Shown piece after piece: positions 1,102 through 10,299 of a DNA stretch of 38,542 bases. The position numbers were made by a program, and so were the translations under genes. The stretch is from a virus (lineage: Duplodnaviria > Heunggongvirae > Uroviricota > Caudoviricetes). The notes under the pieces are model-generated. The model made no database searches. It had not been told where the DNA came from and saw only the letters and a program-made list of their open reading frames with translations. The stretch lies in IMG/VR virus record IMGVR_UViG_2531839531_000011; one strand, given 5' to 3'. The stretch's first letter is position 1. The number at the start of each line of letters is the position of its first letter.

Positions 1102-1689
1102 TCAGCGGGGTAATTTTTGTTTTGTTTCGGTTGAACTCTGATCGCCCTCCAAACTGGAGAAGCCATCAAGAGAGAGAGGCGGAGCAATCTGCCCCGTCGC
1201 AGCATTAGTTTGATTAAACATTACCCAATCCGAATACTTCCGAAAACGGGGATGATTCAAAATCAGGAGTAGCGTTTCTCCAGGCATCATTCTTCCCAAT
1301 ATTTCATAATTTTTGAGATTGTTTTGAGATACCCCTGTCATCTCTTCCATCGCTCTACGCGACAATCCCTCTGCCTCTCGAATCAGGCGGAGTTTTTCTC
1401 CAAGCTCAGATACCACTTCAGATCCATTACCAGCCAATGGCGTGGGTTCAATTTGCCCATTATCTGGAGACACTTGCCCAGTCATAAGCCAAAGCGCGTA
1501 TTTTTTGAACCTATCAACCTGTAAAACTCGCTCAACCAACTCTGCTCTAGCAGGCTGATGACCTGTTTCATATTTCTGAATAGTATTAAGTGGAATCCCT
1601 GTAATATCAGAGAATTGACGTCTGCTTAACTCTTCCGCCTCCCTCATTCTCATGAGTCTTTGCGAATAGTCTATTGACACGTTTCTCAT
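1102..1689 (-). CDS. Immunity repressor candidate with two tandem XRE-type helix-turn-helix domains (ORF extends to 1737; start at MRNVSIDY preferred)
   Basis: Duplicated motif (LSRRQFSDITGIPLNTIQKYETG and LSRRAMEEMTGVSQNNLKNYEILG); aaggag RBS before second ATG; divergent from cox-like gene. Confidence 0.7.
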   Translation of the reverse strand: MRNVSIDYSQRLMRMREAEELSRRQFSDITGIPLNTIQKYETGHQPARAELVERVLQVDRFKKYALWLMTGQVSPDNGQIEPTPLAGNGSEVVSELGEKLRLIREAEGLSRRAMEEMTGVSQNNLKNYEILGRMMPGETLLLILNHPRFRKYSDWVMFNQTNAATGQIAPPLSLDGFSSLEGDQSSTETKQKLPR

Positions 1690-1739
1690 GCGAGAAATAT
1701 ACTCCTTTCTAAATTGAGAAATGCAAGAACAACTCAAAT

Positions 1740-4052: not shown

Positions 4053-4252
4053 ACAAAAAGACTTGGTTTCGCGCATACATGTGGGCGCTGGTATGCGTCC
4101 TCATTTCTATCATTCTGTATGCAGGACTACTCCCCCGAATGATTTCATCAGACAGCTCCTTCCTGGTATTGCTGGGCATTTTCATTGCCATGCTGTACCC
4201 GGCAGGCGTTGTTCGCCTTTTCAGTAAGTACATCAAGGAAATCAAACAATGA
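4049..4252 (+). CDS. Small two-helix membrane protein (67 aa)
   Basis: Two hydrophobic segments (WALVCVLISIILYAGLL and FLVLLGIFIAMLYPAGVV); ATGA overlap with SPFH gene. Confidence 0.55.
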   Translation: MNKKTWFRAYMWALVCVLISIILYAGLLPRMISSDSSFLVLLGIFIAMLYPAGVVRLFSKYIKEIKQ

Positions 4253-5079
4253 AGAAATTCAGACTCTTTCAGATTATCCCGCTTTTTGCCGCCATCCTGC
4301 TGGTTGGTTGCGATCGCGTTGAGCCAGGTAATGTGGGCATCAAAGTCAACAAACTGGGCGACGACAAAGGCGTCGGTGAAGTGGTTGGCGTTGGCCGCTA
4401 CTGGACAGGCTGGAATACAGAGGTTTACATCTTCCCGACCTTCAAACAAATGAAGACCTACGATGAGCCGTTCAGCTTCCAGATGAGTGACGGCACAACC
4501 ATCGGCTATCACATCGGTGTGGCCTACAAGGTTGATCCATCCAAAGTTACCACAGTGTTTCAGACCTACCGCAAAGGCGTGGATGACATTACCGACACCG
4601 ACCTGCGCCAGAAGATCGCCGATGCACTCAACCGGCTGGCCAGCAAAATGACCACCGATAAGTTTATCGACGGTGGTAAGTCTGAACTGCTGGATTCAGC
4701 ACTTAAAGATATTCAGGAAGAGATGACCCCCATCGGCATTCAGGTCATGAGCCTCTCTTATGTCGGTAAACCGGAATATCCGCCAACCGTTATCGACAGC
4801 ATTAACGCCAAAGTCACGGCAAACCAGAAAACCCTGCAACGTGAACAGGAAGTCAAGCAACGCGAAGCTGAAGCCAACATGCTGCGCGCAGAAGCTGCCG
4901 GACAGGCCGATGCCATTCGCACAAAAGCCCAGGCTGAAGCCGACGCCATTCGTTTACGCGGCGAAGCTCTGCGCCAGAATCCCGGCGTTATGGAGCTGGA
5001 AGCGATCAACAAATGGAACGGCACGCTGCCGCAATACATGACCAGTAACACCGCTGTTCCGTTCGTTCCCGTGAAGTAA
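4249..5079 (+). CDS. SPFH/Band-7 (stomatin-prohibitin-flotillin-HflK/C-like) lipoprotein
   Basis: 276 aa; signal peptide with lipobox LLVGC; central SPFH-like region; C-terminal Ala/Glu/Gln-rich coiled-coil (EAEANMLRAEAAGQADAIRTKAQAEADAIRLRGEA). Confidence 0.7.
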   Translation: MKKFRLFQIIPLFAAILLVGCDRVEPGNVGIKVNKLGDDKGVGEVVGVGRYWTGWNTEVYIFPTFKQMKTYDEPFSFQMSDGTTIGYHIGVAYKVDPSKVTTVFQTYRKGVDDITDTDLRQKIADALNRLASKMTTDKFIDGGKSELLDSALKDIQEEMTPIGIQVMSLSYVGKPEYPPTVIDSINAKVTANQKTLQREQEVKQREAEANMLRAEAAGQADAIRTKAQAEADAIRLRGEALRQNPGVMELEAINKWNGTLPQYMTSNTAVPFVPVK

Positions 5080-5084
5080 TTAAA

Positions 5085-5130
5085 TCCGGCCAGTGAAAAC
5101 CGCTGGCCGGAGCAGTATCAGGATTTTTTA
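5085..5130 (+). terminator. Hairpin (TCCGGCCAG...CTGGCCGGA, 9-bp stem) followed 13 nt later by TTTTTT; candidate terminator of accessory operon
   Basis: Inverted repeat and T-run read directly. Confidence 0.45.
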
Positions 5131-5307
5131 GTATGCCGTTCTCACAAAAAAACCGCTTGCCATGCCGCAATCAGCCAGGTTACATTTCCGCTGCACCTCA
5201 TAAAACGGGTGCCGGGATTCTCAACCTGCTGACAAACGAAGCGCACAACCGCGCCAGCGGTTTTTTTGTGCGTACTGTATTGCCACGTCTTTTTCGCATC
5301 AGAATTA

Positions 5308-5386
5308 TGGTGGGGCGTACGGGGCCGACTTCGGTCGGGCCGGTTTCTTCGTTTGCCGGTGTTGAGAACCCCGTACGTCTCGCCAC
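5308..5386 (+). ncRNA. Candidate structured RNA element: long-range stem (GGTGGGGCGTACGGGG pairing with CCCCGTACGTCTCGCCACC) enclosing a UUCG-tetraloop hairpin
   Basis: Complementarity seen by eye in a ~320-bp region with no credible ORF; strand and function unknown. Confidence 0.25.
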
Positions 5387-5449
5387 CCCGAGATTCTCAA
5401 CTCTGGTTGGTGAGTATCCAAAAACTCACAAACGAAGAGGCCAAACACC

Positions 5450-5680
5450 ATGGCAAACCGCAAACAGCACCGCACTATCGCGGAGCGTCGTCACATCCAG
5501 ACTGAAATCGATCGCAGACTCACCCGCGCTGCACACATCGCCTTTATCATGCAATCCAACACATTGCACAGACTCAACAGCACTATTTCAGCCGACTACT
5601 GCGCCGCTGTATTCAGCTATCTGGCGGAAGACCTCCTGTCTCTTCAGGATCTCATCCAGCAGCAAAACAAACTCCATTAA
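5450..5680 (+). CDS. Hypothetical protein (76 aa) upstream of replication genes
   Basis: GAAGAGG RBS before ATG; MANRKQHRTIAERRH basic N-terminus. Confidence 0.5.
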   Translation: MANRKQHRTIAERRHIQTEIDRRLTRAAHIAFIMQSNTLHRLNSTISADYCAAVFSYLAEDLLSLQDLIQQQNKLH

Positions 5681-5752
5681 TTCCTGTTCCGGGCCTTTCC
5701 TGCACCTTGCGGCGGGAGGCCTTCGCACATCTGTAACAAGAGGATTGCCGCA

Positions 5753-6118
5753 ATGATTCTCGCCAACGACTTTCTTGAATACCTGCTCAACACAGAGCGT
5801 GATCTTGCCGCTCGCGTGCGTGATCGTTATGACATGTACCTGAAATCCCTGCCTGTACCGCAGCTCGCTGACGGAAAGATTGTTATTGATGGTCGTTACA
5901 TGATTGACAGCCACGAGGGAAATTACAGGCTTTACCGCATTGAAGGTGGCACCCCGTCCGTTATTGGCATTTACCAGCGCCCATCCTCTGCAATCGTCGA
6001 TGTGATTGCCGACAGCATCCGCATCACACATCGCCATGCCGACACAGAAGACACCGTGCTGGAAATTCAGCGGCTGGCTACAGTCTGCCGCGACACCCTG
6101 AATGGCATGACGAAGTAA
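5753..6118 (+). CDS. Hypothetical protein (121 aa) immediately upstream of gene A
   Basis: ORF with start overlapping previous stop region; no domain recognised. Confidence 0.5.
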   Translation: MILANDFLEYLLNTERDLAARVRDRYDMYLKSLPVPQLADGKIVIDGRYMIDSHEGNYRLYRIEGGTPSVIGIYQRPSSAIVDVIADSIRITHRHADTEDTVLEIQRLATVCRDTLNGMTK

Positions 6119-6124
6119 ATCACT

Positions 6125-8947
6125 ATGACGGCAGAGTACATCAGGGACTGGCAACAACCGCGCCACGCAGTGGGGCGTGAAGGAACGGGGATCCCCGCTC
6201 CTGAATCCGCGCTTTCCTCCTGGCTGGATGCCTACCGGGCAGAGAACGAGCGCCGCCAGGAAATGGCTGATGCGGCGTTCTCCGCCACGCCGCTGGGCAA
6301 CCTGATTAATAAAAGCCTGGACGCACAGGAAAAACAGGACAAAACCATCACACTGGCAGGAGACGCCAGAAAACAGGCACGCGGCGCGGTGGATGAAGCC
6401 ATGGCCTCGCTGCGCCTGCTGCCGTCCTATCTGCGCGATCCGCTTATTCGCCACCTCTCCTTCCTGCGCAAAAAACAGGAAGCCGATCGCCGGAAAGGCA
6501 AAAAGAGCTGGCAGGCTGAACGCTACGCGCGCGGAACCCTGCGCAAAATATTCGAACGTCTGGAGCGCACCGACAGCCGCTGGCTGACACCGGGTTATCG
6601 CTCCCTTGCCGGACGCGAACGCCTGGACGATTTGCTTTACCTGCCGCAGCTTAACAAGCACCAGATACAGACGCTGGCCACCATGACGGCGGCAATGTTC
6701 AGCAGCACCTTTGAGACTCTCTGTGATGGTTTCGGTGCCAGAGATGGCGAGCTGACCATGGATGTAACGCTGAAGGCGTATCAGATGCTGGCCCGCATGG
6801 CGTTACACCTGCACGCCATGCCTCCACATTATGACGCACTGACAACAGACAAAGACCGGAGGAACGAACCGGACACGGAACTGCTGCCGGGCGCAATCCT
6901 TCGCCTGACCTGTGCGGACTGGTGGAAACGCAAACTGTGGCTGTTACGTTGTGAGTGGCGGGAAGAACAACTCCGCGCCGCCTGTCTGGTTTCCAGAAAA
7001 ACATCACCCTATCTGAGCCAGGACGCGTTAAGCGAGTTTCGCGCACAGCGCGAGAAAACACGCGATTTCCTGAAAAGTTTCATGCTGGAAAATGAAGACG
7101 GGTTCACGATTGATCTCGAGACGGTGTATTACGCGGGAGTAAGTAACCCGGTTCACCGTAAGGCAGAAATGATGGCCACCATGAAGGGACTGGAACTTCT
7201 GGCCGAAGCCCGTGGCGACAAAGCGGTGTTTCTGACTGTCACCTGCCCGTCAAAATACCACGCCACAACAGAGAACGGTCATCCGAATCCCAAATGGAAC
7301 GGGGCCACCATGCGCGACTCCAGCGATTACCTGGTTAACACGTTTTTTGCGGCGGTCCGCAAAAAACTGAACCGCGACGGCCTGCGCTGGTATGGCATCC
7401 GCACGGTGGAGCCTCACCATGACGGCACCGTGCACTGGCATATGATGGTCTTTGCTCATCCGGAAGAAATCGACACCATTGTGTCCCACACCCGCGATAT
7501 TGCCATTCAGGAAGACCGCCACGAACTGGGCAATGATATTACTCCGCGCTTTAAGGCGGAGTACGTCGACGGCTCAAAAGGCACGCCAACCAGCTACATC
7601 GCCACCTACATCGGAAAGAACCTGGACAGCCACGCCGTGGATGGCATCGACCCGAAAACGGGCAAGCCACGCGTTGACCACGAAACCGGAAAATCAATGG
7701 CCGAGAGCGTGGAGCGCGCCATCGGCTGGGCGCGCCTTCACCGGGTCCGCCAGTTCCAGTTCTTTGGCATCCCCTCCCGTCAGGTGTGGCGTGAACTGCG
7801 CCGCCTTGCCAGCCAGATGGCACGCAACCCGGAAGGCCCGCAACGACTGAAGGATGACGCAATGGATGCAGTGCTCGCTGCCGCTGATGCCGGGTGTTTT
7901 GCCTCCTACATTGAAAAACAGGGCGGCGTACTTGTTCCACGCAAAGACTACCTGATTCGCACCGCCTACGACCTCGCAGATGAGCTGAACGATTACAGCG
8001 AACAGAGCGTACAGATTTACGGGATCTGGTCACCACTCATCGGGGAGTCCTCCCGTGTGTGCACGCATCCGGATAACTGGAAGCTGGTAAGACGCAAACC
8101 GGAAGCGGAAGACAGCGCCCGCGAAAATGGTTTTGACCTTCAGGGCGGCCCTGCCGCCCCTTGGACTCGTGGCAATAACTGTCCCCGTGTACAGGAAACG
8201 GACAACAACGGGACAGAACAGCCGGAAGAACGGCCAGCACCGTGGCCGCAGCTCCCTGACGGCGTTGAAGTGAACGAATGGATGCGCTCACTGAAACGGC
8301 ACGAACGCCGGGCGCTGATGCGTTCGCTTCGTGACAAACAGGCAAAAAACAGCAGTGATGAAATGCAGAGCTGGACACAGAGCCGCAAACAGCAGCGGCC
8401 TTTGCCTGATAACCACGAATTACTCGCTAAAGAATGGCGGGAGTCTGCTGAATCTCTCGGCCTGCATATCGGTGAACAGCAGATGCAGCACCTGTTACGG
8501 GGCGGCAGTCTGTACGTTGACGGCAGCATCATTGCACCGCAGGGATTTGAAATTGTACGCAAACCGGATACCCGCCCGGACAGCCGAATCACGCAGCTCT
8601 GGCAGCGCCTGAGCCGTAATCACGGCGTAAGCAGCACGGAGATCCGCCATAACCCGGTCGCCAGCTATCTGGCACAGCTGGGGGCATCAGACCCCGAAGC
8701 CGCCGCACGCCTGGCATCCACACTTCAGCAGGACCAGAACACCATGAAAACACCCGTTACCGTGCTTTCTGACATGCTGCGCGCCATCCGCGACGCAGAG
8801 TACGCACAGAGAATCTGTGAAACCACTGAACGCGCCCACCGCAAAGCAGACCTGCTGCGGGGTGGCCTGACCCGTGGGAACAAAAAACAGACAGAAACGG
8901 GATTCACAAATCCCGTAAATGAGCAAAAAACGCGCCGCGATATATGA
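6125..8947 (+). CDS. A: Replication initiation endonuclease (P2 gpA-like rolling-circle initiator) with long C-terminal extension
   Basis: 940 aa; motifs HDGTVHWHMMVF and YIATYIGK match the histidine and catalytic-tyrosine motifs I recall for GPA-family initiators. Confidence 0.85.
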   Translation: MTAEYIRDWQQPRHAVGREGTGIPAPESALSSWLDAYRAENERRQEMADAAFSATPLGNLINKSLDAQEKQDKTITLAGDARKQARGAVDEAMASLRLLPSYLRDPLIRHLSFLRKKQEADRRKGKKSWQAERYARGTLRKIFERLERTDSRWLTPGYRSLAGRERLDDLLYLPQLNKHQIQTLATMTAAMFSSTFETLCDGFGARDGELTMDVTLKAYQMLARMALHLHAMPPHYDALTTDKDRRNEPDTELLPGAILRLTCADWWKRKLWLLRCEWREEQLRAACLVSRKTSPYLSQDALSEFRAQREKTRDFLKSFMLENEDGFTIDLETVYYAGVSNPVHRKAEMMATMKGLELLAEARGDKAVFLTVTCPSKYHATTENGHPNPKWNGATMRDSSDYLVNTFFAAVRKKLNRDGLRWYGIRTVEPHHDGTVHWHMMVFAHPEEIDTIVSHTRDIAIQEDRHELGNDITPRFKAEYVDGSKGTPTSYIATYIGKNLDSHAVDGIDPKTGKPRVDHETGKSMAESVERAIGWARLHRVRQFQFFGIPSRQVWRELRRLASQMARNPEGPQRLKDDAMDAVLAAADAGCFASYIEKQGGVLVPRKDYLIRTAYDLADELNDYSEQSVQIYGIWSPLIGESSRVCTHPDNWKLVRRKPEAEDSARENGFDLQGGPAAPWTRGNNCPRVQETDNNGTEQPEERPAPWPQLPDGVEVNEWMRSLKRHERRALMRSLRDKQAKNSSDEMQSWTQSRKQQRPLPDNHELLAKEWRESAESLGLHIGEQQMQHLLRGGSLYVDGSIIAPQGFEIVRKPDTRPDSRITQLWQRLSRNHGVSSTEIRHNPVASYLAQLGASDPEAAARLASTLQQDQNTMKTPVTVLSDMLRAIRDAEYAQRICETTERAHRKADLLRGGLTRGNKKQTETGFTNPVNEQKTRRDI

Positions 8948-9023: not shown

Positions 9024-9983
9024 ATGAAAATTTGTATCGACGACGGCTCCACCAACATCAAGCTGGCATGGACTGAGAACGGCGAACGCCGCAACGCCAT
9101 CAGCCCGAACAGCTTCAAGTCGGAATGGTCTGCGCCGTTCGGTGGCACGCAGCCCGCAAACTACATGCTTGATGGCGTGCGCTATGGTTTTGATCCGGTC
9201 AGCGATCGCTTTGTCCAGACGACCGACACGCAATACCAGTACAGCGATGTGAATGTCATTGCCATTCATCACGCGCTGGTCAAATCAGGTATCACACCAC
9301 AGGAAGTGGATGTGGTTGTCACCCTGCCACTGAGCGAGTATTTCGACACAAACGCCCAGCCGGATATGACCAACATCAACCGCAAAAAAGCGAATGTTAT
9401 GCGCCCGGTGGAGTACCAGAACGGTGAGGCATTCACTATCCGTAACGTGCGGGTTATGCCTGAATCCATTCCGGCTGGCTTTAAAGCACTGGCTGACATG
9501 AGTCCGTTTGAATCCCTGCTGATTGTGGATTTAGGCGGAACCACGCTGGATGTGGCAAAGGTTCAGGGACAACTGGCAGGTATCAGCCAGGTGTTTTGCG
9601 ATCCACACGTAGGCGTTTCCCTGATGGCCGATGCAGTACTCTCGGTGATGGCCGCTAACGGTATGCGTACCAGTCACCACATCGCCAATACCATTATCGA
9701 ACATCGCCATGATGAAGCCTGGCTGCGCCAGCACATCCACAATGACGCGCATTACGCCAGCCTGATGGCGGTTATTCGTGAAAAGGAAGAAACACTGAAA
9801 CAACGCGTGATCCGCGCGCTGGCGGGTTTTTCGGGTTACGGGCGGGTGATGGTTGTCGGTGGCGGGGCGGAGATTGTGGCACCCGCTATCCGCGAAGCCT
9901 GCGGAGTTAATGCGACTTTCATCGCGGACGGGGTGCCACAGTTTGCTCTGGTTAAGGGGCTGTACGCAATGGACAAGGAGTAA
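9024..9983 (+). CDS. parM: ParM/StbA-like actin-fold partition ATPase
   Basis: 319 aa; N-terminus MKICIDDGSTNIKLAW and downstream blocks closely resemble recalled plasmid R1 ParM; DLGGTTLD phosphate motif. Confidence 0.8.
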   Translation: MKICIDDGSTNIKLAWTENGERRNAISPNSFKSEWSAPFGGTQPANYMLDGVRYGFDPVSDRFVQTTDTQYQYSDVNVIAIHHALVKSGITPQEVDVVVTLPLSEYFDTNAQPDMTNINRKKANVMRPVEYQNGEAFTIRNVRVMPESIPAGFKALADMSPFESLLIVDLGGTTLDVAKVQGQLAGISQVFCDPHVGVSLMADAVLSVMAANGMRTSHHIANTIIEHRHDEAWLRQHIHNDAHYASLMAVIREKEETLKQRVIRALAGFSGYGRVMVVGGGAEIVAPAIREACGVNATFIADGVPQFALVKGLYAMDKE

Positions 9984-9987
9984 ACCA

Positions 9988-10299
9988 ATGACGACTCCAA
10001 CCAGACGGATAAGTTTCTATCTGAAGCCCGCCGCCGTCAAGAACGAAGGTGAAGCATGCGCCTGGCTGGACAGCCTTACACCAGAAGCGCGCAAAAGCGG
10101 CCAACGCGTGGCTTTTCTGGCCGGGCTGGCACTTCTGAAAATGAATCCGGCAGAGGCTTACCGACTGGCTGCATGGGCTGATGATGAAGCGTTATCAGTG
10201 ACACAAACCAGGACAGAACGCCCCGCGTCACAGCCAGTATCAACCGCACAGATAACCAGTCAGATGGCCGGAAATATCCGGGCGTTATTTCCCGAATAA
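9988..10299 (+). CDS. parR: ParR-like DNA-binding adaptor
   Basis: 103 aa directly after parM with AAGGAG RBS; AFLAGLAL and C-terminal NIRALFPE resemble recalled R1 ParR. Confidence 0.55.
   Translation: MTTPTRRISFYLKPAAVKNEGEACAWLDSLTPEARKSGQRVAFLAGLALLKMNPAEAYRLAAWADDEALSVTQTRTERPASQPVSTAQITSQMAGNIRALFPE

What the first reader, a model, noticed from the sequence alone, without database searches (positions are those of the whole stretch)
5131..5449. Structured non-coding region with nested stems and repeated TTCTCAAC / ACAAACGAAG motifs
About 320 bp downstream of the operon terminator has no credible ORF (the 207-aa track ORF is Pro/Arg/Ser-rich and lacks an RBS). It contains a 5+9-bp long-range stem (5308..5323 with 5368..5386) enclosing a GCCGAC-UUCG-GUCGG tetraloop hairpin, a short hairpin with a T7 run near 5255..5280, three copies of TTCTCAAC (two direct, one inverted) and two copies of ACAAACGAAG. 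This looks like a small RNA or a cis-regulatory leader for the replication genes.
Basis: seen in the sequence. Interest (0 to 1): 0.5.

Follow-up and report, generated by a model that had tools for sequence, protein, structure and literature searches.

The report
Phage antisense-RNA immunity switch (IsrK + c4)
The "structured non-coding region" is a known kind of phage RNA switch: a small leader RNA and a c4-type antisense RNA whose short recognition boxes match the ribosome-binding site of a P4 epsilon-like derepression gene. It sits in a P2-family prophage where nobody has annotated it.

Summary
Window 5157-5449 holds two full-length Rfam matches above their gathering scores. One is an IsrK-type leader sRNA (5193-5267, 62 bits) with a promoter-like site and an intrinsic terminator. 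The other is a C4 antisense RNA (5303-5390, 79 bits).

- a1/b1 lie in the leader.
- a'/b' lie in single-stranded parts of c4.
- a2/b2 lie downstream, and b2 overlaps the Shine-Dalgarno of a 76-aa gene.

That gene is a homologue of the satellite phage P4 derepression protein epsilon. Phage P4's own immunity region gives the same Rfam pair in the same order. The window is a P88-like (Xuanwuvirus, P2-family) prophage, so this is a P4/P1-type RNA immunity cassette placed ahead of orf121 and replication gene A.

Across 62 distinct P88-like copies the scaffold is almost invariant. The six boxes vary and stay mutually complementary, giving 20 specificity types. The c4 stems covary.

It is an unannotated member of a known kind, found in about 21% of complete E. 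coli genomes. Expression, RNase P processing and the function of the epsilon-like protein are inferred, not shown.

The parts
5157..5186 (+). Sigma-70-like promoter: TTGCCA (5157-5162), 18-nt spacer, TACATT (5181-5186). The predicted start near G5193 is position 1 of the isrK model.
   Evidence: 9 of 12 consensus positions; 2 sites found against 0.3 expected. Nearly invariant in 62 homologous copies (column entropy 0.13 bits). Consensus match only; no transcript data.
5193..5267 (+). IsrK-type leader sRNA (equivalent to the P4 seqA leader and the c4-a1b1 element). It has hairpin 1 (5193-5212), a second hairpin presenting a1 in its loop, single-stranded b1, and an intrinsic terminator.
   Evidence: Rfam RF01394, 62.0 bits (gathering score 50), model positions 1-77 of 77. 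The same family lies 22-62 nt upstream of C4 in 12 of 13 diverse loci and in phage P4.
5218..5225 (+). Box a1 (TTCTCAAC), complementary to a' of c4.
   Evidence: Covaries with a' in 61 of 62 P88-like copies.
5232..5241 (+). Box b1 (ACAAACGAAG); 9 nt are complementary to b' of c4.
   Evidence: A 9-nt match to the copy's own b' in 58 of 62 copies.
5247..5267 (+). Intrinsic terminator of the leader sRNA: stem AACCGC/GCGGTT, loop GCCA, then T7.
   Evidence: Column entropy 0.04 bits across 62 copies.
5303..5390 (+). c4-type antisense RNA (P1/P7 c4; P4 CI RNA). It has a 17-bp closing stem (5308-5324 / 5369-5385), a UUCG hairpin (5325-5338) and a second hairpin (5339-5360). The mature RNA is probably about 5308/9-5386.
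   Evidence: Rfam RF01695, 79.2 bits (gathering score 45), full length. The MFE fold equals the consensus structure, z = -4.67. Stems covary in 88 distinct c4 sequences. The mature ends are inferred from P1.
5346..5355 (+). Box b' (UCUUCGUUUG) in the loop of hairpin 2.
   Evidence: Sequence; (b'-b2 duplex -17.7 kcal/mol).
5361..5368 (+). Box a' (GUUGAGAA) in the single-stranded joiner between hairpin 2 and the closing stem.
   Evidence: inverted TTCTCAAC.
5394..5401 (+). Box a2 (TTCTCAAC), a target site on the mRNA leader.
   Evidence: Matches the copy's own a' in 62 of 62 copies.
5428..5440 (+). Box b2 (CAAACGAAGA, 5429-5438), overlapping the Shine-Dalgarno GAAGAGG (5434-5440). The ATG lies 9 nt downstream at 5450.
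   Evidence: and the sequence. Own-b' match of at least 9 nt in 56 of 62 copies. Across diverse loci the commonest b2-to-start distance is 10 nt (range 2-13).
5450..5680 (+). 76-aa homologue of the phage P4 epsilon (helper derepression) protein; the gene directly controlled by c4.
   Evidence: BLASTP against P4 epsilon: 30% identity over 66 aa, E = 4e-9. Pfam PF25738 gives 22.7 bits here (below the gathering score of 27) and 31.8 bits for the 70%-identical P88 protein. phrog_3688.
5681..5752 (+). Conserved intergenic spacer between the epsilon-like gene and orf121.
   Evidence: The 79 nt after the epsilon coding sequence (stop codon to the orf121 ATGA, 5678-5756) are identical to P88, although epsilon differs at 51 of 228 nt. 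Its 5' end is retained in a prophage that lacks the cassette.
5753..8947 (+). Downstream genes of the same transcription unit: orf121 (5753-6118, phrog_3237, function unknown) and replication initiator gpA (6125-8947).
   Evidence: (PF05840, 435 bits).
5133..5756 (+). The 207-aa ORF that databases label 'Ash family' or 'transcriptional regulator'. It overlaps both RNAs and the epsilon-like gene in the +1 frame. Most likely not a protein gene.
   Evidence: Weak PF10554 match (21.2 bits, below 26) over the RNA region. The frame is open in 56 of 66 copies and ends in ATGA at the orf121 start. Between-clade amino-acid identity is no better than in a frame with stops, and about 10 of 66 copies are frameshifted.

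Best explanation
The region is a P1 immI / P4 CI-type antisense-RNA switch carried as a cassette in a P88-like (P2-family) prophage.

Proposed mechanism:
1. A promoter at 5157-5186 starts transcription near 5193.
2. Most transcripts stop at the terminator (5247-5267). This yields a roughly 75-nt IsrK-like RNA that displays boxes a1 and b1.
3. Read-through transcripts carry the c4 RNA (about 5308-5386). It is cut out by RNase P and 3' trimming and accumulates in the lysogen.
4. c4 pairs through its b' loop and a' joiner with b2 and a2 on the mRNA. This covers the Shine-Dalgarno of the 76-aa epsilon-like gene and blocks its translation.
5. By analogy with P1 icd-ant and P4 kil/eta, the untranslated RNA is then terminated by Rho. 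That also limits orf121 and gpA expression from this promoter.
6. The a1/b1 copy competes for c4. It does so in cis by the long alternative helix and in trans as the short sRNA. A burst of leader transcription therefore titrates c4 and switches on the epsilon-like protein, a presumed antirepressor of P2-type C repressors.

Shown here by computation: family membership, fold, covariation of stems and boxes, overlap of b2 with the Shine-Dalgarno, and homology to epsilon and to the P4 layout. Inferred from the P1, P4 and Gifsy-1 experiments: transcription, processing, repression, polarity and the activity of the epsilon-like protein.
For: - Both RNAs give full-length Rfam matches above gathering score.
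- Phage P4's immunity region gives the same pair in the same order, followed by a2, then b2 over the Shine-Dalgarno, then an AUGGC start, with epsilon downstream. The 76-aa protein matches P4 epsilon at E = 4e-9.
- Three-way box covariation holds in 99 non-identical c4 loci with 47 a'/b' combinations. The locus's own a' or b' complement (at least 7 nt) is found upstream in 83 and 74 loci, and downstream in 91 and 90. Swapped controls give about 4-5%.
- In 62 distinct P88-like copies there are 20 types. Own-box matches are 7-8 nt (a) and 9-11 nt (b) in 56-62 of 62 copies, while swapped boxes match at 6 nt or fewer in more than 95% of cases. Column entropy is 0.57-0.83 bits in the six boxes and 0.00-0.30 elsewhere.
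- The c4 stems covary with many G-U pairs, which indicates a + strand RNA. The minus strand folds less well (z = -2.5 against -4.7).
- The read-through transcript's MFE pairs a1b1 with a'b' in cis. This is 'structure A' of the Gifsy-1 IsrK study, where short IsrK in trans activated translation 100-fold or more (PMC4825925).
- The commonest b2-to-start-codon distance across unrelated downstream genes is 10 nt (range 2-13).
Against: - There are no expression, processing or binding data for this phage group, and I found no paper on it.
- Whole-molecule cofolding predicts no net gain for c4 binding (ddG about 0). Pairing would need kissing-type initiation or a chaperone.
- The cassette is absent from a related prophage that keeps orf121-gpA, so it is dispensable for replication.
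- The epsilon-like variant does not track the phage's own repressor type. Identical epsilon occurs with C proteins only 35% identical, which leaves its target open.
- The window's own protein scores below the Pfam threshold.
- The Gifsy-1 authors explain their locus partly through a translated ORF inside the c4 region, not through a trans-acting c4.
Confidence: 0.8

Rival explanations
1. The RNAs are the same, but the primary role is P4-style immunity of replication. In this reading c4 binds a1b1 and a2b2 on nascent transcripts mainly to cause premature termination. That keeps gpA (and orf121) silent in the lysogen and in superinfecting homoimmune phage. The epsilon-like gene would be a passenger.
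For: The layout parallels the P4 left operon: leader, CI RNA, targets, epsilon, small ORFs, replication gene. The epsilon-like gene, orf121 and gpA are tightly packed on one strand. The epsilon-like type does not track the phage's own repressor type.
Against: b2 sits on the Shine-Dalgarno of the epsilon-like gene, which points to translational control as the first event. A related prophage runs orf121-gpA without the cassette. In a P2-type phage, gpA is normally expressed from the early promoter Pe, which the C repressor already controls (general knowledge of P2). This rival differs from the main explanation in emphasis more than in kind.
Confidence: 0.3
2. The region, or part of it, is protein-coding. 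The 207-aa ORF, or the 149-aa version starting at the AUG at the 5' edge of c4 (5307), is translated. Either the 'Ash-like' protein or the act of translating it (coupling into orf121 through the ATGA overlap at 5753-5756) matters, in addition to the RNAs.
For: The +1 frame is free of stops over the 257 nt upstream of the epsilon start in 59 of 62 copies. From the c4 AUG it runs 147-149 codons and ends exactly in the ATGA at the orf121 start in 56 of 66 distinct loci. Given the epsilon protein sequence, synonymous shuffles leave that frame open with probability about 0.01 (window clade) and about 0.1 (P88 clade). In Gifsy-1 an ORF in the equivalent place (orf45) was tagged, detected and needed for downstream translation (PMC4825925).
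Against: Between clades the +1 frame is 60% identical, against 63% for the frame with stops and 70% for epsilon, so there is no protein-level constraint. About 10 of 66 loci carry frameshifts while c4 and epsilon stay intact. Box variation follows base-pair complementarity, not codons. I saw no Shine-Dalgarno before AUG 5307 on reading the sequence. The window holds many spurious ORFs at least as long. The Pfam Ash match is below threshold and covers only the RNA genes.
Confidence: 0.15
3. It is an inactive relic, for example a scar of recombination with a P4-like satellite, or a DNA-level element such as repeated protein-binding sites or an origin for gpA.
For: The cassette is present or absent among related prophages. 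The repeats could in principle bind a protein.
Against: Twenty box types remain perfectly matched at three sites each across 62 copies. That requires continuing selection on RNA pairing. G-U pairs and strand asymmetry in the stems argue against a DNA structure. The promoter and terminator are nearly invariant. The module is in about 1148 of 5426 complete E. coli genomes.
Confidence: 0.04

Closest known systems
Satellite phage P4 immunity region (leader with seqA, CI RNA = seqB, seqC, then kil/eta, epsilon, orf151, cnr, alpha)
   Same: The same two Rfam families occur in the same order and spacing: isrK 60.8 bits and C4 74.9 bits in P4. Both have a two-box antisense design with upstream and downstream target copies. 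In both, b2 lies over a Shine-Dalgarno followed by an AUGGC start. An epsilon homologue lies downstream, followed by small ORFs and then the replication initiator.
   Different: The host element is a complete P2-family phage, not a satellite. There is no Icd-like kil/eta gene between c4 and epsilon. The replication gene is the rolling-circle initiator gpA, not the alpha primase-helicase. The epsilon-like protein is 76 aa and 30% identical. The box sequences differ.
Phage P1/P7 immI operon (c4 RNA, icd, ant)
   Same: It has the c4 fold, a'/b' boxes matching a1/b1 and a2/b2, a downstream box over the RBS of the first gene, and an anti-repressor-type output. P1 c4 is 77 nt and acts in trans on ant mRNA (PMC12197685). 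It is an RNase P substrate (Hartmann 1995, cited in PMC4919922).
   Different: The controlled genes differ (icd and ant against an epsilon-like protein), as does the phage family. Control of the promoter by the primary repressor, as for C1 in P1 (from memory), was not examined here.
Salmonella Gifsy-1 isrK / orf45 (STnc1160) / anrP locus
   Same: The leader belongs to the IsrK family. It is followed by a processed stable RNA complementary to it and then by an anti-repressor-like gene. The predicted cis helix between the leader and the downstream RNA matches their 'structure A'. Short IsrK activates in trans (PMC4825925).
   Different: Gifsy-1 is lambdoid. Its output, AnrP, is unrelated to epsilon. 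Their model relies on a translated orf45 inside the c4-like region, whereas here the equivalent frame shows no protein-level constraint.

Membership tests
C4 antisense RNA (Rfam RF01695; P1/P7 c4, P4 CI) | Covariance-model score at or above the curated gathering score, full length | tested here: met
   79.2 bits against 45, model positions 1-87 of 87, E = 4.5e-14.
C4 antisense RNA (Rfam RF01695; P1/P7 c4, P4 CI) | Long closing stem enclosing two hairpins, supported by covariation | tested here: met
   The MFE fold equals the Rfam consensus, z = -4.67. Across 88 distinct c4 sequences there are multiple compensatory pair types, for example 5315-5378 (CG 40, GT 29, TG 11, GC 4) and 5328-5335 (CG 45, AT 24, TA 14, GC 5). 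The stem of hairpin 2 was fixed by my search pattern, so it is uninformative.
C4 antisense RNA (Rfam RF01695; P1/P7 c4, P4 CI) | Two single-stranded boxes (a', b') complementary to a2/b2 at the ribosome-binding site of the downstream gene | tested here: met
   a' at 5361-5368 matches a2 at 5394-5401 (8 nt). b' at 5346-5355 matches b2 at 5429-5438 (10 nt), overlapping the Shine-Dalgarno at 5434-5440. These covary across 20 types in 62 copies and 47 types in 99 loci.
C4 antisense RNA (Rfam RF01695; P1/P7 c4, P4 CI) | Second copy of the targets (a1/b1) upstream of c4 | tested here: met
   a1 at 5218-5225 and b1 at 5232-5241. They covary with a'/b'.
C4 antisense RNA (Rfam RF01695; P1/P7 c4, P4 CI) | Excised from a longer precursor by RNase P, giving a stable RNA of about 77 nt | not testable with these tools
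   Only the geometry is consistent: a stem of 5308-5385 gives about 78 nt. No RNA data are available.
C4 antisense RNA (Rfam RF01695; P1/P7 c4, P4 CI) | Represses an anti-repressor or derepression gene | tested here: inconclusive
   The downstream gene is a homologue of P4 epsilon (E = 4e-9; the P88 orthologue passes the Pfam PF25738 threshold). The window protein is below threshold, and neither repression nor anti-repressor activity was tested.
isrK (Rfam RF01394) / c4-a1b1 leader / P4 seqA leader | Covariance-model score at or above gathering score | tested here: met
   62.0 bits against 50, model positions 1-77 of 77.
isrK (Rfam RF01394) / c4-a1b1 leader / P4 seqA leader | Match to the separate c4-a1b1 model (RF03163) | tested here: not met
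   There is no RF03163 match in 4900-5800 up to E = 10. P4 itself scores 44.1, below the gathering score of 46.7. The boxes that model describes are nevertheless present.
isrK (Rfam RF01394) / c4-a1b1 leader / P4 seqA leader | Own promoter and Rho-independent terminator, immediately upstream of a complementary c4-type RNA | tested here: met
   Promoter-like and terminator-like sites are conserved in 62 copies. The isrK-C4 tandem occurs in 12 of 13 diverse loci. These are consensus matches only.
isrK (Rfam RF01394) / c4-a1b1 leader / P4 seqA leader | Hfq binding and trans-activation of the downstream ORF | not testable with these tools
   Known only for Gifsy-1 (PMC4825925).
P4-like satellite | Satellite gene set (sid, psu, delta, alpha primase) and lack of its own virion genes | tested here: not met
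   By ORF order and size, the window looks like a complete P2-type phage: integrase, C, portal, terminase, capsid and tail genes (function read from position and size, not tested). Cox and gpA are confirmed by Pfam. The closest records are Peduoviridae, genus Xuanwuvirus. Only the immunity/epsilon cassette is shared with P4.

The most novel reading that the evidence does not exclude
P88-like helper-type phages, present in about a fifth of E. coli genomes, carry as a swappable cassette the same RNA immunity and epsilon module that is regarded as a hallmark of P4 satellites, in at least 20 recognition types. If so, helper phages and satellites (and lambdoid phages that share some a' boxes) may form an RNA cross-immunity or cross-induction network. 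P4's derepression and immunity functions may have come from, or been exchanged with, P2-family phages. A further possibility is that the conserved +1 frame running from the c4 AUG to the ATGA at orf121 is translated and couples the switch to orf121/gpA expression.
Probability: 0.2. Interest if true: 0.55.

Novelty: new member of a known kind. Interest (0 to 1): 0.3.

Why it matters
The finding itself is ordinary in kind. Both RNAs are curated Rfam families, and P1, P4 and Gifsy-1 provide experimental precedents.

Its value is in annotation and context:
- Public records of these phages and prophages carry no RNA feature here. They call spurious proteins over it instead: 'transcriptional regulator', 'ash family protein' or a minus-strand hypothetical.
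- A survey of P4-like satellites used Pfam PF10554 ('Ash') as its epsilon marker. Here that model matches the ORF overlying the CI/c4 RNA and not epsilon.
- The same survey stated that delta is the only P4-specific gene with clear homologues in P2-like phages. The epsilon homologue and the CI-type RNA in P88-like phages add to that picture.
- The 20 co-varying box types give a ready-made natural set of orthogonal antisense/target pairs.

Tried and rejected
- Decayed or real protein gene: rejected as the main reading but kept as a minor rival, because the +1 frame is unusually well preserved.
- Epsilon-like protein as a dedicated anti-repressor of the phage's own C repressor: not supported. Identical epsilon occurs with C proteins 35% identical, and 75%-identical C proteins occur with epsilon 70% identical.
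- orf121 as a homologue of P4 orf151: no similarity. It has no Pfam or NCBIfam match.
- A genome-contig scan with the 76-aa protein returned only one locus, in E. albertii. The viral-contig scans were far more productive.
- Whole-molecule cofolding of c4 with its targets gave ddG of about 0, so it neither supports nor refutes pairing. Only local duplex energies are informative.
- Literature searches found nothing on c4, IsrK or epsilon in P88-like or Xuanwuvirus phages, or on expression in EHEC prophage CP-933T. The primary P1 and P4 papers are not in the library, so those mechanisms are cited from reviews, reference lists and memory.
- The second promoter-like site (5280-5308) would start inside the c4 stem. 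I treated it as a chance consensus match.

Full report
**What is in the sequence.** The window looks like a complete P2-family prophage. Pfam confirms Cox, a Band-7/SPFH gene and a 940-aa gpA replication initiator. The integrase, C-type repressor, portal, terminase, capsid and tail genes are inferred from ORF order and size. Its closest relatives are phage P88 and other Xuanwuvirus members of the Peduoviridae.

The flagged stretch lies between the SPFH gene (4249-5079) and a 76-aa ORF (5450-5680). That ORF is followed by orf121 (5753-6118) and gpA (6125-8947).

**Identity of the RNAs.** A scan of the whole window against Rfam gives exactly two matches at gathering threshold, and both fall inside the finding:
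- isrK (RF01394) at 5193-5267, 62.0 bits against a gathering score of 50.
- C4 antisense RNA (RF01695) at 5303-5390, 79.2 bits against 45.

Both matches cover the full model on the + strand.

A sigma-70-like site (TTGCCA, 18-nt spacer, TACATT; 5157-5186) places a start near G5193, which is position 1 of the isrK model. The 'hairpin with T7' (5247-5267) is the terminator of that small RNA.

The 88-nt c4 segment folds alone into the Rfam consensus. This consists of a 17-bp closing stem, a UUCG hairpin and a second hairpin. The energy is -48.6 kcal/mol with z = -4.67. The opposite strand folds less well, with z = -2.5.

**What the repeats are.** They are the recognition boxes of the c4 system:
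- a' (GUUGAGAA, 5361-5368) lies in the single-stranded joiner of c4.
- b' (UCUUCGUUUG, 5346-5355) lies in the loop of the second hairpin.
- a1 (5218-5225) and b1 (5232-5241) lie upstream in the leader RNA.
- a2 (5394-5401) and b2 (5429-5438) lie downstream of c4.

Box b2 overlaps the Shine-Dalgarno GAAGAGG (5434-5440), and the ATG at 5450 follows 9 nt later.

**Evidence from other loci.** A pattern scan of viral contigs returned 99 non-identical c4 loci with 47 a'/b' combinations. Complements of at least 7 nt to the locus's own boxes were found as follows:

| Box | Upstream | Downstream |
|---|---|---|
| a' | 83 of 99 | 91 of 99 |
| b' | 74 of 99 | 90 of 99 |

Boxes swapped between loci reach this length in only about 4-5% of cases. 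The commonest distance from b2 to the start codon is 10 nt (range 2-13), even though the first gene differs between loci. It can be Rha/Ant-like, Icd-like or epsilon-like.

I then collected 62 distinct copies of the region upstream of epsilon-like genes in P88-like contigs. The scaffold is nearly invariant, with column entropy of 0.00-0.30 bits. This includes the promoter (0.13) and the terminator (0.04). The six boxes are the variable part, at 0.57-0.83 bits.

These copies fall into 20 types (5 a' by 14 b'), and the three copies of each box change together:
- Own a1 and a2 match a' over 7-8 nt in 61-62 of 62 copies.
- Own b1 matches b' over 9 nt in 58 of 62 copies.
- Own b2 matches b' over 9-11 nt in 56 of 62 copies.
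- Swapped boxes match over 6 nt or fewer in more than 95% of cases.

The c4 stems covary across 88 distinct sequences. Frequent G-U pairs would be A-C mismatches on the other strand, which indicates a + strand RNA. Rfam finds the isrK-C4 tandem, 22-62 nt apart, in 12 of 13 diverse loci.

**Relation to P4.** Phage P4's immunity region gives the same pair of Rfam matches: isrK at 60.8 bits and C4 at 74.9 bits (the CI RNA). It is followed by the same arrangement of a2, b2 over a Shine-Dalgarno, and an AUGGC start.

In P4 the first gene after c4 is the Icd-like kil/eta, and epsilon comes next. In the window the epsilon-like gene follows c4 directly.

The evidence that the 76-aa protein is an epsilon homologue is as follows:
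- It matches P4 epsilon at 30% identity over 66 residues, E = 4e-9.
- Pfam PF25738 scores 170 bits for P4 epsilon and 31.8 bits for the P88 orthologue.
- Pfam PF25738 scores 22.7 bits for the window's own protein, which is below the threshold of 27.

The module is therefore the P4-type immunity and derepression cassette, placed ahead of orf121 and gpA in a helper-type phage.

It is common, present at 80% query coverage or more in 1148 of 5426 complete E. coli genomes. It is also dispensable. A related prophage in strain TW10598 keeps orf121-gpA but retains only the last 59 nt of the cassette.

**Mechanism.** I commit to the P1/P4/Gifsy-1 model set out under best explanation. The steps about transcription, RNase P processing, translational block, Rho polarity and anti-repressor activity rest on three sources:
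- The Gifsy-1 experiments (PMC4825925).
- Review statements on P1 c4 (PMC12197685; PMC4919922).
- My own knowledge of the P1 and P4 literature, which the library does not hold.

One prediction is already visible in silico. The read-through transcript's MFE pairs a1b1 with a'b' in a long cis helix, which is the translationally silent 'structure A' of the Gifsy-1 study.

**The 207-aa ORF.** It is not that simple:
- Its frame is stop-free upstream of epsilon in 59 of 62 copies.
- From the AUG at the edge of c4 (5307) it runs about 148 codons to an ATGA overlap with orf121 in 56 of 66 loci.
- Synonymous shuffling of epsilon leaves that frame open in only about 1-10% of trials.

Against a protein, four observations stand:
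- Between-clade amino-acid identity is 60% in that frame, 63% in a frame with stops, and 70% for epsilon.
- About 10 of 66 loci are frameshifted while the RNAs and epsilon stay intact.
- I saw no Shine-Dalgarno before AUG 5307 on reading the sequence.
- The window has many spurious ORFs at least as long.

Its weak Pfam 'Ash' match covers only the RNA genes. The same model matches the obsolete P4 'cI' ORF over the CI RNA. I rate functional translation at about 15%.

**Novelty.** I found no paper describing these RNAs or the epsilon homologue in P88-like phages. Public annotations miss them. The kind of system is well known, so this is a new member of a known kind.

Noticed in passing
window 5133-5756; L123 (phage P4) 8168-8584: Pfam PF10554 'Phage_ASH' matches translations that overlie the isrK/c4 (CI) RNA genes and not epsilon, which is PF25738. 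A published P4-satellite survey used PF10554 as its epsilon marker (PMC8628076). PGAP places 'ash family protein' pseudogenes over this RNA region.
   Followed up: partly
window 5307-5756: The +1 frame, running from the AUG at the 5' edge of c4 through the whole epsilon-like gene, stays open in 56 of 66 distinct loci. It ends in an ATGA overlap with the orf121 start. There is no protein-level conservation.
   Followed up: partly
window 5678-5756: The 79 nt from the epsilon-like stop codon to the orf121 ATGA are identical to P88, although the epsilon gene differs at 51 of 228 nt and its differences are spread over all codon positions. This may reflect a mosaic boundary or a conserved element. 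A possible 8-bp hairpin (GGCCTTTC...GGGAGGCC) was seen by eye only.
   Followed up: no
L210 4996-5115 (E. coli TW10598): A related P88-like prophage lacks the entire leader/c4/epsilon cassette. It keeps only the equivalent of window 5642-5700 in front of orf121-gpA.
   Followed up: partly
window 1102-1737 (-): The immunity repressor ORF is 211 aa with two helix-turn-helix units. Each resembles a whole roughly 95-aa P2-type C repressor of related phages, so it looks like a tandem-duplicated, single-chain repressor.
   Followed up: no
window 4249-5128: An SPFH/Band-7 lipoprotein gene with its own hairpin is present here and in P88 and E. coli N50. It is absent from P88_4B11, phiSM and E1535, where homology to the window starts at about 5143. 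It looks like a moron-type insertion next to the RNA cassette.
   Followed up: no
window 9024-10299: ParM-like and partition-protein genes lie directly downstream of gpA. They are annotated as such in the near-identical N50 prophage. This hints at a plasmid-like maintenance option for this P2-family phage.
   Followed up: no
L004 6535-7379; L010 4574-5421; also L018, L095: Some viral contigs carry two isrK-C4 modules in tandem, about 650 nt apart. The two have different box types, and each is followed by a Rha/anti-repressor-like gene.
   Followed up: no
window 5280-5308: A second sigma-70-like site (TTGCCA, 17-nt spacer, AATTAT) would start transcription inside the c4 5' stem. It is probably a chance match.
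   Followed up: no
L012 5981-6049; L021 7978-8039: int-alpA RNA (RF02996) matches occur in two of the c4-bearing viral contigs. From memory, that motif is associated with P4-like elements.
   Followed up: no
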